Positions 1 to 676 of a DNA stretch of 676 bases are shown piece by piece. The notes beneath the pieces were generated by a model, which was not told the DNA's origin, ran no database searches, and saw only the letters and a list, made by a program, of their open reading frames with translations. The stretch is taken from assembly GCF_003334385.1 (NCBI RefSeq), contig NZ_QOWN01000152.1; one strand, 5' to 3'. The DNA is from Escherichia coli (GTDB lineage Bacteria > Pseudomonadota > Gammaproteobacteria > Enterobacterales > Enterobacteriaceae). Numbering within the stretch: position 1 is the stretch's first letter; every line of letters begins with the position of its first letter. The position numbers and the translations under genes were made by a program.

Positions 1-42
1 GGGGCGCGGTGTCCAAAGCGATCGTTTTTTACGCCGGATGAT

Positions 43-58: not shown

Positions 59-424
59 TTACAGTCCGATGATGTCGTCCGCTCTGCCACTACCTCCGGA
101 CACCTCCGGCAGCGTCGGGTCCGGCATACCACCCGCCGCTTCACGAGCAGACTTTTGTCGATGGCATTCGGTACAGAGCGTCCAGAGATTCGTCTCCTCA
201 TTACCACCACCGAACTGAAGTGCAATTCGGTGATCGAGTTCACTGTCACAGAGGTCAACCACACGACCACAGATACAGCACTGCCCGGCGTCCCTCAGCC
301 AGATATGACGCTTGAGGGAAACACGTGCACTGCCACTGACACGACGCTGCTCCCCCTTCAGAATATTCACCCGTCGGGTATTCAGTGTTTTGATTCTGCT
401 CTGGAGTGTACGAAGCTGAGCCAT
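59..424 (-). CDS. HNH endonuclease (zinc-binding beta-beta-alpha-metal nuclease), 121 aa, complete
   Basis: Minus-strand ORF with ATG at 424-422 and TAA at 61-59. I verified codons by hand: Cys49 (278-280), Asp64-His65 (230-235), Cys84-Thr-Glu-Cys87-His88 (161-175). The protein has the full HNH signature: CxxC (C49/C52), catalytic DH (D64-H65), GGGNEETN with Asn75/Asn79, and a second CxxC-H (C84/C87/H88). An SD-like GGGGA sits 6 nt upstream of the start. Family assignment is motif-based, not from a search. Confidence 0.85.
   Translation of the reverse strand: MAQLRTLQSRIKTLNTRRVNILKGEQRRVSGSARVSLKRHIWLRDAGQCCICGRVVDLCDSELDHRIALQFGGGNEETNLWTLCTECHRQKSAREAAGGMPDPTLPEVSGGSGRADDIIGL
92..111. repeat. 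10-bp tandem direct repeat (ACCTCCGGAC / ACCTCCGGCA) in the HNH 3' tail
   Basis: Read directly: ACCTCCGG occurs at 92-99 and 102-109, each followed by 2 nt. On the minus strand it encodes PEVSGG in the low-complexity C-terminal tail. Confidence 0.45.
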
Positions 425-430
425 GTAAAA

Positions 431-435
431 TCCCC
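431..435 (-). promoter_or_regulatory. SD-like GGGGA for the HNH CDS
   Basis: The minus strand reads CGGGGA-TTTTAC-ATG; the G-rich element lies 6 nt upstream of the ATG at 424. Confidence 0.4.
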
Positions 436-453
436 GTCATATGGCAATCAGTA

Positions 454-458
454 AAGGA
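454..458 (+). promoter_or_regulatory. Shine-Dalgarno (AAGGA) for the CDS starting at 466
   Basis: AAGGA at 454-458 with a 7-nt AT-rich spacer to ATG 466. This supports ATG 466 over the GTG at 406 used by the ORF track. Confidence 0.55.
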
Positions 459-465
459 AATAAAT

Positions 466-666
466 ATGTCATCGAAAAACCGGACCCGCAGAACCACAAC
501 CCGCAATATCCGTTTCCCCAATCACATGATTGAACAGATCAACATCGCCCTTGAGCATAAAGGATCCGGTAACTTTTCAGCGTGGGTTATTGAAGCCTGC
601 AGGAGAAGGCTGGCAACAGATGCAACGCATCTGCGCCCGGCCAGCATGAAAAATAACGAGAAATGA
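466..666 (+). CDS. Small basic ribbon-helix-helix-like DNA-binding protein, DUF3950 (YlcI/YnfO-like) prophage family, 66 aa, complete
   Basis: ATG at 466 is preceded by AAGGA (454-458) with a 7-nt spacer; stop TGA at 664-666. Translation verified codon by codon: MSSKNRTRRTTTRNIRFPNHMIEQINIALEHKGSGNFSAWVIEACRRRLATDATHLRPASMKNNEK. It has an Arg/Thr-rich N-terminal arm, then a strand-like NIRFPNHM segment and a helix-like GSGNFSAWVIEA segment, which matches the Arc/Mnt-type RHH pattern (N-x-R-x-P ... NGRS-x-N-S). The resemblance to E. coli prophage YlcI/YnfO is from memory and is not search-verified. Confidence 0.8.
   Translation: MSSKNRTRRTTTRNIRFPNHMIEQINIALEHKGSGNFSAWVIEACRRRLATDATHLRPASMKNNEK
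617..633. repeat. Perfect 7-bp inverted repeat with 3-nt spacer (CAGATGC-AAC-GCATCTG)
   Basis: Read directly: 617-623 CAGATGC is the exact reverse complement of 627-633 GCATCTG. It lies inside the 3' end of the 466..666 CDS (codons ATDATHL), about 30 bp upstream of the putative downstream start. Its existence is certain; its function is unknown. Confidence 0.5.
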
Positions 667-676
667 ACGTTCGGTT
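663..676 (+). CDS. Possible 5' end of a downstream gene (M-N-V-R...), truncated by the window edge; possibly terminase small subunit by synteny
   Basis: ATG at 663-665 overlaps the TGA stop of the upstream gene (ATGA), a classic translational-coupling arrangement. Only 14 nt are visible, so the product cannot be verified. The terminase suggestion rests solely on remembered synteny (ylcI-nohD in DLP12, ynfO next to nohA in Qin). Confidence 0.3.

What the first reader, a model, noticed from the sequence alone, without database searches (positions are those of the whole stretch)
466..666. Uncharacterised RHH-like DUF3950 protein translationally coupled to the putative packaging gene
The 66-aa protein has a basic N-terminal arm and an Arc/Mnt-like strand-helix signature, predicting a dimeric sequence-specific DNA binder. 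Its stop overlaps the next start (ATGA). From memory, YlcI/YnfO-family genes sit immediately upstream of Nu1-like terminase small-subunit genes in E. coli prophages, yet the family has no assigned function. A DNA-binding protein stoichiometrically coupled to terminase small subunit is a candidate cos-recognition accessory factor or late-region regulator.
Basis: partly seen in the sequence, partly recalled or inferred. Interest (0 to 1): 0.55.

Follow-up and report, generated by a model that had tools for sequence, protein, structure and literature searches.

The report
Conserved small prophage protein, not packaging-coupled
This is a real, strongly conserved 66-residue prophage gene of the uncharacterised YlcI/YnfO (DUF3950) family, probably a small ribbon-helix-helix DNA-binding protein, but it lies on the strand opposite the DNA-packaging genes and points away from them, so the proposed coupling to terminase is wrong.

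Summary
The ORF at 466-666 (+) is real. It has a Shine-Dalgarno site (AGGA, 455-458), matches Pfam DUF3950 (E=6e-20) and NCBIfam YlcI/YnfO above cut-off, and has dN/dS of about 0.02 against its phage lambda homologue. RefSeq already annotates the identical protein.

The ATGA stop/start overlap exists, but the ORF it opens is only 33 codons. That ORF occurs as two unrelated alleles, is 17 codons in lambda and is absent elsewhere. It is not a terminase.

All late genes (lysis, HNH, terS, terL, capsid) lie on the minus strand. The DUF3950 gene is the only plus-strand gene. It diverges from the HNH gene across 41 bp and converges on the lysis genes. In K-12, ylcI/nohD and ynfO/nohA are also divergent neighbours, 389 bp apart.

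The ribbon-helix-helix (RHH) reading has several weak but mutually consistent supports and none that is significant alone.

New observations:
- Lambda carries an unannotated ORF identical to YlcI, 199 bp from its right end.
- Homology between lambda-type and HNH-type phages covers only codons 1 to about 48.
- PICI-like (phage-inducible chromosomal island) satellites carry paralogues at a repressor-like position, one fused to a TerS-like DNA-binding domain.

Best reading: an autonomously transcribed small RHH-type regulator rather than a packaging-coupled factor. Its target is unknown. Interest is modest.

The parts
466..666 (+). CDS of a 66-aa YlcI/YnfO (DUF3950) family protein; the stop codon is TGA at 664-666
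   Evidence: ORF and translation. Pfam PF13132 E=6e-20. NCBIfam NF041551 above cut-off. RefSeq WP_000095743.1 at the 100% identical locus. dN/dS 0.02-0.11 against diverged homologues.
455..458 (+). Shine-Dalgarno-like AGGA, 7 nt upstream of the ATG
   Evidence: Read directly from the sequence. A purine-rich SD is kept in BP-4795 and JLK-2012 although the surrounding bases differ.
466..611 (+). Conserved core module (codons 1 to about 48): basic arm, predicted beta-strand (residues 13-18, NIRFP), helix A (19-32) and helix B (37-53)
   Evidence: blastn homology to lambda, DLP12 and Qin is confined to window 466-600/611. Invariant residues are I15, R16, I25, F37, V41 and C45. AF2 secondary structure.
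612..663 (+). Hypervariable C-terminal tail, specific to this allele; contains the 608-642 hairpin
   Evidence: Tails differ completely between window, lambda/YlcI, YnfO and BP-4795. Low pLDDT. Hairpin -19.4/-21.4 kcal/mol, z about -2.3.
425..465 (.). 41-bp divergent intergenic region between the HNH start and the DUF3950 start. It holds the 5' leaders and RBS of both genes, and a weak -10 candidate (TAAAAT, 426-431) found by eye.
   Evidence: Coordinates. The consensus scan found no convincing promoter here. This upstream region has no similarity to the region upstream of lambda or K-12 ylcI/ynfO.
59..424 (-). HNH endonuclease gene (121 aa) of the late/packaging operon, divergent from the DUF3950 gene
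   Evidence: ORF. phrog_589 HNH endonuclease E=1.6e-44. RefSeq annotation; terS and terL follow on the same strand.
1..24 (.). Probable cosN-like segment of the phage cohesive-end site. It is context only, not part of the DUF3950 unit.
   Evidence: A 30-bp stretch (L005 8995-9024) is 87% identical to a site just upstream of the terS of a PICI-like satellite. Phage record MT225100 is linearised 2 nt from window position 1. This is an inference.
663..676 (+). Start of a 33-codon ORF that overlaps the stop codon (ATGA); not a conserved gene
   Evidence: The ORF is L005 9663-9764 and is unannotated. It has two unrelated alleles, is 17 codons in lambda and is absent elsewhere. No PHROG hit.

Best explanation
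The feature is a genuine gene for a small YlcI/YnfO (DUF3950) protein under strong purifying selection. It most likely folds as a ribbon-helix-helix (RHH) dimer. In that model a basic N-terminal arm and a two-stranded beta-ribbon (residues about 13-18, NIRFP) bind DNA.

The gene is an autonomous transcription unit on the strand opposite the phage late operon. It sits at the junction between the lysis genes and the packaging module (HNH, cos, terS, terL). It is therefore neither co-transcribed with nor translationally coupled to the packaging genes, and late transcription runs antisense through it.

The most likely role is a small sequence-specific regulator, probably a repressor, made from its own promoter when late transcription is off (prophage state or early infection). 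Its DNA target is unknown.

Shown: gene reality, family membership, orientation and context, lack of coupling. Inferred with moderate support: the RHH fold. Inferred only: DNA binding, a regulatory role and the timing of expression.
For: Gene and family:
-.
- dN/dS = 0.02 against lambda over 50 codons.

Orientation:
- The source prophage (100% match) has lysis, HNH, terS, terL and capsid genes all on the minus strand, with this gene alone on the plus strand.
- The same layout is seen in JLK-2012, BP-4795 and vB_EcoS-783R2 and in 80 of 80 IMG/VR loci.
- K-12 ylcI/nohD and ynfO/nohA are divergent.
- Lambda has the same ORF reading inward from the right end.

RHH fold:
- AF2 gives an extended segment followed by helices 19-32 and 37-55. 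A tandem construct pairs residues 15-16 with 83-84.
- hhalign to RHH proteins gives P=9.5e-4 in the correct register, against 0.15-0.5 for non-RHH controls.
- A weak PHROG match to HicB-like antitoxins has E=0.006.

Regulator role:
- In PICI-like satellites, paralogues are the only opposite-strand genes between the int/AlpA-like genes and the replication operon, where a master repressor would sit.
- Conserved 12-bp palindromes (TGGTACGTACCA, two copies) lie at the promoter of the satellite copy.
- One paralogue is fused to a TerS-type helix-turn-helix (HTH) domain. That fits DUF3950 acting as a dimerising, DNA-binding module.

Transcription: K-12 ylcI is transcribed, being listed in a ybcW-ylcI convergent excludon (PMC12288877).
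Against:
- No convincing sigma-70 promoter, terminator or conserved operator was found next to the gene in the window or in lambda.
- The region upstream of the ATG is unrelated between phage lineages, so no shared autoregulatory site is visible.
- In satellites, which protein binds the palindromes is unknown.
- No experimental function is reported in the searchable literature.
Confidence: 0.5

Rival explanations
1. Cos or packaging accessory factor. The protein binds DNA near cos and assists or modulates terminase, for example in cos recognition, termination at cosQ or end protection.
For: - The gene is always the closest or second-closest gene to cos on the right arm. It is 199 bp from the lambda right end, 389 bp from nohD and nohA, and separated from cos only by the HNH gene here.
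- It keeps this position next to two non-homologous packaging modules.
- In satellites, a DUF3950 domain is fused to a DNA-binding domain 62-66% identical to the helper TerS N-terminus. GTT(T/A)AAC repeats like the phage cosB-like repeats lie just upstream of the fusion gene.
Against: - It lies on the strand opposite the late operon, so it is transcribed antisense when terminase is made.
- There is no translational coupling.
- The core, including the putative DNA-reading strand, is 92% identical between phages whose cos and terS regions share no detectable similarity. This argues against cos-specific recognition.
- Satellite paralogues lie about 4 kb from the satellite's own cos-like site.
- Relatives occur in non-phage islands.
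- From established lambda biochemistry (my own knowledge): cos cleavage and packaging are reconstituted with terminase (Nu1 and A), IHF and proheads, with no further phage DNA-binding factor.
Confidence: 0.12
2. Helper-satellite cross-talk factor. The phage copy is a homologue of the PICI-like satellites' regulator. It would act on the satellite as a decoy repressor or as an inducer through heterodimers or shared operators, or the satellite copies would act on the phage.
For: - Satellites that parasitise exactly this phage type carry one or two DUF3950 paralogues at the regulatory switch. The link to this phage type rests on a shared cosN-like 30-mer, a TerS with a helper-like C-terminus, and insertion into the prophage terL.
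- One paralogue carries a helper-like TerS DNA-binding domain.
Against: - Phage and satellite copies are only about 35-45% identical.
- The satellite palindrome GGTACGTACC is absent from all phage loci fetched.
- The fusion occurs at 80% or more coverage in only 1 of 5,426 complete E. coli genomes, whereas window-like sequence is in 1,464 of them. Most carriers therefore have no such partner.
Confidence: 0.1
3. Non-DNA-binding small protein, for example an orphan antitoxin-like or adaptor protein, or the first gene of a lysogenic-conversion cassette with DUF1398 and bor.
For: - Weak PHROG match to HicB-like antitoxin.
- In Qin, ynfO is followed 58 bp later by ydfO (DUF1398) on the same strand.
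- In lambda and DLP12 the leftward block is ylcI ... DUF1398 (ybcV in DLP12; lambdap78 at the equivalent position in lambda) ... bor.
- One relative follows cdtABC.
Against: - No conserved partner gene lies next to it in the window lineage.
- Neighbours differ in every context examined.
- The invariant residues fit a DNA-binding RHH pattern.
- No PADLOC defence-system match.
Confidence: 0.1
4. The main function is the act of antisense transcription. The unit would insulate the HNH and terminase genes from read-through in the lysogen (an excludon), and the protein would be secondary.
For: - Opposite-strand placement directly upstream of the packaging genes in every lambdoid context.
- ybcW-ylcI is reported as a convergent excludon in K-12 RNA-seq.
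Against: dN/dS of 0.02-0.11 with saturated synonymous change shows selection on the amino-acid sequence rather than only on transcription. The family also occurs where there is no operon to insulate.
Confidence: 0.06

Closest known systems
YlcI (DLP12) and YnfO (Qin) of E. coli K-12; Pfam DUF3950 (PF13132) / NCBIfam NF041551
   Same: Same family by HMM, above curated cut-offs. The first 50 residues are 92% identical to YlcI and the lambda ORF. Similar size. Same position beside the packaging module and on the opposite strand.
   Different: The neighbour is an HNH endonuclease gene plus a Terminase_2-type terS, not a Nu1-type nohD/nohA. The upstream region and the C-terminal tail are unrelated. 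The family itself has no assigned function.
Ribbon-helix-helix repressors (Arc and Mnt of P22, CopG, the NikR N-terminal domain)
   Same: Size. A basic N-terminal arm. A hydrophobic/polar alternating strand (NIRFP against Arc FNLRWP). A two-helix layout with an N/S-capped second helix. A register-consistent weak profile match. RHH proteins are the nearest structural neighbours.
   Different: No significant sequence or structure score. No Pfam RHH hit. The dimer and DNA binding are untested. No operator has been identified.
Lambda-type morons (for example bor): independently transcribed genes set against the late operon near the right end
   Same: Opposite-strand placement between the lysis genes and cos, and presence in cryptic prophages. 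Mosaic boundaries lie tight around the gene.
   Different: A moron is defined by its own promoter and terminator, and neither could be shown here. The position immediately next to the packaging module is unusually constant.
Master repressors of phage satellites (for example Stl of SaPIs), by position only
   Same: Satellite DUF3950 paralogues are the lone divergent genes at the int/replication switch, with palindromic sites at their promoter.
   Different: There is no homology to Stl. This applies to the satellite paralogues and not to the window gene. The function is untested.

Membership tests
DUF3950 / YlcI-YnfO family | Match to the family HMMs above threshold | tested here: met
   Pfam PF13132 E=6.2e-20, model positions 1-30 of 30. 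NCBIfam NF041551 35.3 bits against a cut-off of 30. phrog_949 E=2.6e-33.
DUF3950 / YlcI-YnfO family | Conserved core motif IRFP...NFSAWV..AC in a protein of about 50-90 aa | tested here: met
   I15, R16, F17, F37, W40, V41, A44 and C45 are invariant or nearly so across 17-19 diverse members, including the query.
Ribbon-helix-helix (Arc/MetJ/CopG) superfamily | Beta-alpha-alpha topology | tested here: inconclusive
Ribbon-helix-helix (Arc/MetJ/CopG) superfamily | Obligate dimer with an intertwined antiparallel beta-ribbon | tested here: inconclusive
   The single-chain tandem model shows paired strand residues 15-16 and 83-84, but mean pLDDT is 42.6. No multimer tool was available.
Ribbon-helix-helix (Arc/MetJ/CopG) superfamily | Detectable sequence-profile relationship to RHH families | tested here: inconclusive
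   No Pfam RHH family at E<=10 for the query or at E<=0.1 for 17 members.
Ribbon-helix-helix (Arc/MetJ/CopG) superfamily | Sequence-specific DNA binding | not testable with these tools
   Needs EMSA, footprinting or ChIP. No conserved operator was found near the gene.
Packaging-operon gene translationally coupled to terS | Same strand as terS, directly upstream of it, with a stop/start overlap | tested here: not met
   terS is at L005 8206-8769 on the minus strand, on the 5' side of the plus-strand DUF3950 gene. 80 of 80 related loci show TerL-, TerS-, HNH-, [DUF3950+], Rz-. The ORF opened by the ATGA is 33 codons and not conserved.
Type II toxin-antitoxin antitoxin (RHH class) | Operon with an adjacent conserved toxin gene | tested here: not met
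   There is no conserved same-strand neighbour. The downstream ORF varies or is absent. Contexts are heterogeneous.
Moron (autonomous transcription unit within a phage operon) | Own promoter and terminator flanking the gene | tested here: inconclusive
   Opposite-strand placement implies its own promoter. Consensus scans found nothing above shuffled expectation, and no plus-strand terminator.

The most novel reading that the evidence does not exclude
DUF3950 proteins are a regulator family shared by lambdoid helper phages and the PICI-like satellites that parasitise them. The phage copy takes part in helper-satellite cross-talk, as a decoy repressor, as an inducer or as a target. The satellite fusion of DUF3950 with a helper-like TerS DNA-binding domain binds GTTAAC-type cosB repeats to interfere with helper packaging. 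A related positional idea also remains open: the gene reads inward from the chromosome end that enters the cell first, so it could act as a pre-early gene.
Probability: 0.1. Interest if true: 0.7.

Novelty: new member of a known kind. Interest (0 to 1): 0.3.

Why it matters
On its own this is an ordinary, already annotated member of a common prophage gene family. Window-like sequence occurs in 1,464 of 5,426 complete E. coli genomes.

Three points give it some residual value:
- Phage lambda itself carries an unannotated copy under very strong purifying selection, 199 bp from its right end. This is a rare case of a conserved lambda gene with no known function that could be tested directly by a simple deletion.
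- The conserved unit is only the core of about 145 bp. It keeps its place beside two unrelated packaging modules.
- Satellites of these phages use paralogues at their regulatory switch and fuse one to a TerS DNA-binding domain. This gives concrete, testable leads to its function.

Tried and rejected
- Translational coupling to a packaging gene: rejected.
- Sequence homology to solved structures: none, with the single sequence or with a profile. The only hits were spurious, a ribosomal protein and short pAgo at E>0.1.
- Pfam RHH families: no hit for the query or for 17 members.
- Single-chain tandem AF2 model to force the dimer: low confidence, pLDDT 43. It was not used for fold search.
- Rfam scan of the 3 kb around the window at E<=1: only a chance rimP-leader hit outside the window.
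- Promoter and terminator scans in the window locus and in lambda: nothing above shuffled expectation on the relevant strand.
- A conserved operator upstream of the gene: the upstream regions of HNH-type and lambda-type phages are unrelated. The imperfect CCATGT-N12-ATATGG repeat in the window, seen by eye, is not conserved in BP-4795 or JLK-2012.
- The 617-633 palindrome as a binding site: it is a marginal hairpin in an allele-specific tail.
- Defence-system membership: no PADLOC hit.
- Literature: no functional study of YlcI, YnfO or DUF3950. Nothing links PICIs to RHH regulators. The lambda ribosome-profiling paper could not be retrieved.
- The IMG/VR context survey returned only near-identical loci, so diversity was sampled through individual contig look-ups instead.

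Full report
**1. What is in the window**

The 676-base window holds two genes. An HNH endonuclease gene lies on the minus strand at 59-424 (121 aa; phrog_589 E=1.6e-44).

The ORF in question lies on the plus strand at 466-666 and encodes MSSKNRTRRTTTRNIRFPNHMIEQINIALEHKGSGNFSAWVIEACRRRLATDATHLRPASMKNNEK.
- A Shine-Dalgarno-like AGGA sits at 455-458, 7 nt before the ATG.
- The protein matches Pfam DUF3950 (PF13132, E=6.2e-20).
- It matches NCBIfam YlcI_YnfO_N at 35.3 bits against a cut-off of 30.
- It matches phrog_949, a family of unknown function, at E=2.6e-33.

The window is 100% identical to a prophage of E. coli DETEC-S792, where RefSeq already names the product 'YlcI/YnfO family protein'. 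Similar sequence is present in 1,464 of 5,426 complete E. coli genomes, with up to nine copies per genome, and in 83 phage records, mostly Stx-converting phages.

**2. Is it a real gene?**

Yes. An ORF alone proves little, since the window has 13 ORFs of at least 20 codons, including a 138-codon ORF antisense to the HNH gene. The comparative evidence is decisive.
- Over the first 50 codons, window versus lambda or YlcI shows 24 synonymous and 5 non-synonymous differences, giving dN/dS = 0.02.
- Other diverged pairs give 0.03-0.11.
- All homologues start at the same ATG, and nucleotide homology to lambda-type phages begins exactly there. The start is therefore ATG 466 and not the upstream in-frame GTG at 406.

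**3. Context: the coupling claim fails**

In the source prophage every late gene lies on the minus strand: holin, lysozyme, Rz-like lysis gene, HNH, terS, terL, capsid, portal. The DUF3950 gene is the only plus-strand gene. It diverges from the HNH gene across 41 bp and converges on a small hypothetical gene and the Rz-like lysis gene.

The same layout is annotated in JLK-2012, BP-4795 and vB_EcoS-783R2. It was recovered by tblastn in all 80 IMG/VR loci fetched, wherever enough flank was present: TerL-, TerS-, HNH-, [DUF3950+], Rz-. The terminase small-subunit gene therefore lies on the 5' side of the gene and on the other strand.

The ATGA at 663-666 does open an ORF, but it runs for only 33 codons (L005 9663-9764) and is unannotated.
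- Among loci with near-identical DUF3950 genes it exists as two unrelated 33-residue sequences.
- It is 17 codons in lambda and K-12 ylcI.
- It is absent in BP-4795 and ynfO.
- It has no PHROG match.
It is not a packaging gene and most likely not a gene at all.

ylcI and nohD, and ynfO and nohA, are neighbours, but they are divergent with a 389-bp gap. That gap holds the lambda-type cos. The sequence upstream of ylcI in the alignment starts with the reverse complement of the lambda right end.

**4. Lambda has this gene**

NC_001416 does not annotate it. A 64-codon ORF at 48303..48109 on the minus strand encodes a protein identical to K-12 YlcI. Its start codon is 199 bp from the right cohesive end.

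The family is small: 103 representatives at 50% identity have E<1e-3. Named members are almost all from Enterobacterales, including Escherichia, Salmonella, Klebsiella, Rouxiella, Providencia, Proteus, Moellerella and Serratia. Many 'ena' contigs of about 3.5 kb, and some 'Staphylococcus aureus' entries, look like lambda control DNA. That last point is my inference.

**5. The conserved unit is only the core**

blastn between the window locus and lambda, DLP12 or Qin aligns only window 466-600/611, which is the start codon to about codon 45-49. Upstream sequence, C-terminal tail and downstream DNA are unrelated.

The core is 46/50 identical between this phage (HNH plus Terminase_2-type terS) and lambda (Nu1-type), although their cos and terS regions share no detectable similarity. 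A protein that read cos specifically would be expected to co-vary with the cos type, and this one does not.

**6. Fold**

No solved structure is related by sequence, and no Pfam family other than DUF3950 matches the query or 17 diverse members.

| Test | Result |
|---|---|
| AF2 with a 19-sequence alignment | Extended segment at 13-18, helices 19-32 and 37-55; mean pLDDT 68, core blocks 71-83 |
| AF2 tandem 'single-chain dimer' | Residues 15-16 pair with 83-84, two helices per half; pLDDT only 43 |
| Foldseek against PDB | Top hit apo-NikR, E=2.5 |
| Foldseek against AFDB50 | 4 of 12 hits CopG/RHH and 4 TCP-domain; best E=0.41 |
| hhalign against four non-RHH controls | P=0.15-0.5 |
| PHROG HicB-like antitoxin | E=0.006 |

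Each line is weak, but all point the same way. I put the RHH fold at roughly 75%.

**7. Relatives elsewhere give functional hints**

Satellites. Two representatives (P0217, 120 aa; P0192, 129 aa) join an N-terminal DUF3950 domain to a segment 66% and 62% identical to residues 1-53 of this prophage's TerS, its HTH DNA-binding domain. They lie in PICI-like satellites of about 9 kb that carry an integrase, an AlpA-like gene, DUF4222, a D5-type primase, a TerS-like gene and a capsid-like gene.

In these satellites, and in others from Providencia and E. coli, the DUF3950 genes are again the only opposite-strand genes. They sit between the int/AlpA-like genes and the replication operon, where a master repressor would be expected. 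Two features mark their regulatory regions:
- The promoter region of the 60-aa satellite gene holds two perfect 12-bp palindromes (TGGTACGTACCA) 33 bp apart. They are conserved in four loci while the flanks vary, and they are absent from all phage loci fetched.
- The fusion gene is preceded by four GTT(T/A)AAC repeats. These resemble the GTTAAC-containing repeats between terS and HNH in the phage.

The satellite's own cos-like 30-mer is 87% identical to L005 8995-9024, which includes window 1-24. It lies next to the satellite terS, about 4 kb from the DUF3950 genes. Proximity to cos is therefore not a general property of the family.

Other contexts. More distant members sit in non-phage or decayed settings:
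- after cytochrome bd-type oxidase genes in Rouxiella;
- in a Salmonella island;
- after cdtABC;
- in integrative elements.

**8. Mechanism**

The best-supported account is an autonomous, oppositely oriented transcription unit that encodes a small dimeric RHH-type DNA-binding regulator. Because late transcription runs antisense through it, it is most plausibly expressed when the late operon is silent.

K-12 ylcI is transcribed and is reported as a convergent excludon with ybcW (PMC12288877). No function has been published.

What I could not find is a convincing promoter, terminator or operator, either near the window gene or in lambda.

The rivals are listed with their evidence in the Rival explanations section: a cos accessory factor, helper-satellite cross-talk, an antitoxin-like or adaptor protein, and a pure antisense insulator. 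The cos accessory idea keeps some weight because of the constant position next to cos and the TerS-domain fusion. Strand, lack of coupling, lack of co-variation with cos type and the occurrences away from cos all count against it.

**9. Comparison with what is known, and novelty**

Membership of DUF3950/YlcI-YnfO is established. Membership of the RHH superfamily is likely but unproven. Membership of a terS-coupled packaging operon was tested and not met. The gene is a new (in fact already annotated) member of a known but uncharacterised family.

**10. Verdict**

The headline claim of coupling to a packaging gene is wrong. Interest is 0.3.

Noticed in passing
window 1-24 (L005 8995-9024): A 30-bp stretch spanning the first bases of the window is 87% identical to a site just upstream of the terS of a PICI-like satellite (L009 3734-3763). 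Phage record MT225100 is linearised 2 nt from window position 1. This is probably the cosN region shared by helper and satellite.
   Followed up: partly
L005 8840-8970 (outside the window, between terS and HNH): Five GTTAAC-containing repeats (CAGTTAACAT / ATGTTAACTG) in both orientations. They look like TerS-binding (cosB-type) sites.
   Followed up: no
L013 3110-3304 (-) = NC_001416 48109-48303: The phage lambda reference record does not annotate a 64-codon ORF whose product is identical to K-12 YlcI. The ORF starts 199 bp from the right cohesive end.
   Followed up: yes
L009 about 1221-10046 (E. coli 90-3040, CP027459.1): A PICI-like satellite of about 8.8 kb is inserted inside the terL gene of a prophage of the window's type. 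It splits terL into a 93-aa N-terminal fragment and a C-terminal fragment of at least 451 aa, with a 14-bp duplication (L005 7935-7948). The same junction appears in L011. Satellites inside prophages have already been reported (preprint cited in PMC10085698).
   Followed up: partly
L009 8001-8363; L008 4714-5103: Satellite proteins fuse an N-terminal DUF3950 domain to a TerS-type DNA-binding domain 62-66% identical to the helper TerS N-terminus. Four GTT(T/A)AAC repeats lie directly upstream of the gene in L009 (7893-7973). The fusion is rare, found at 80% or more coverage in 1 of 5,426 complete E. coli genomes.
   Followed up: partly
L009 7545-7589; L105 6984-7028; also L010, L011: Two perfect palindromes (TGGTACGTACCA in L009; core GGTACGTACC in all four loci), 33 bp apart, flank a TATAAT-like box just before the satellite 60-aa DUF3950 gene. 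They are conserved while the flanks vary, which makes them likely operators. The binding protein is unknown.
   Followed up: partly
L008 4560-4650; L098 6895-6935: Two or three GTGCACAAACAC-like direct repeats lie upstream of DUF3950 genes in another satellite lineage (Providencia and a metagenome contig).
   Followed up: no
L013, 37-52 nt from the lambda right end (minus-strand reading); same in K-12 ylcI and ynfO upstream regions: GATAATGATTATCATC resembles a Fur box (comparison from memory). It lies about 150 nt upstream of the ylcI-type start codon.
   Followed up: no
window 663-676 and L005 9663-9764: The ORF that overlaps the stop codon occurs as two unrelated sequences that are both exactly 33 codons long and diverge after the fourth codon. 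This marks a recombination junction immediately after the DUF3950 stop codon.
   Followed up: partly
window 608-642: A hairpin (7-bp perfect inner stem, 3-nt loop, extended outer stem) of -19.4 kcal/mol on the plus strand and -21.4 on the minus strand, z about -2.3. It lies inside the allele-specific tail-coding region and is not followed by a T-run on either strand.
   Followed up: partly
L005 9766-9830: A 10-bp perfect inverted repeat (TATCCCCGCA / TGCGGGGATA) with 45 nt between the arms, just downstream of the 33-codon ORF. The fold is not unusual compared with shuffled sequence (z -1.3 to -1.9).
   Followed up: partly
protein database hits P0223, P0068 and many 'ena' contigs of about 3.5 kb: YlcI/YnfO proteins attributed to Staphylococcus aureus, and dozens of frameshifted variants on contigs of about 3.5 kb, look like lambda control DNA and noisy long reads rather than true homologues. 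This inflates the family in databases.
   Followed up: no
L095 7001-7180 (Rouxiella sp.): A DUF3950 gene sits directly after cytochrome bd-type oxidase subunit I and II genes and before a DUF2474 gene, on the same strand. This is a non-phage context.
   Followed up: no
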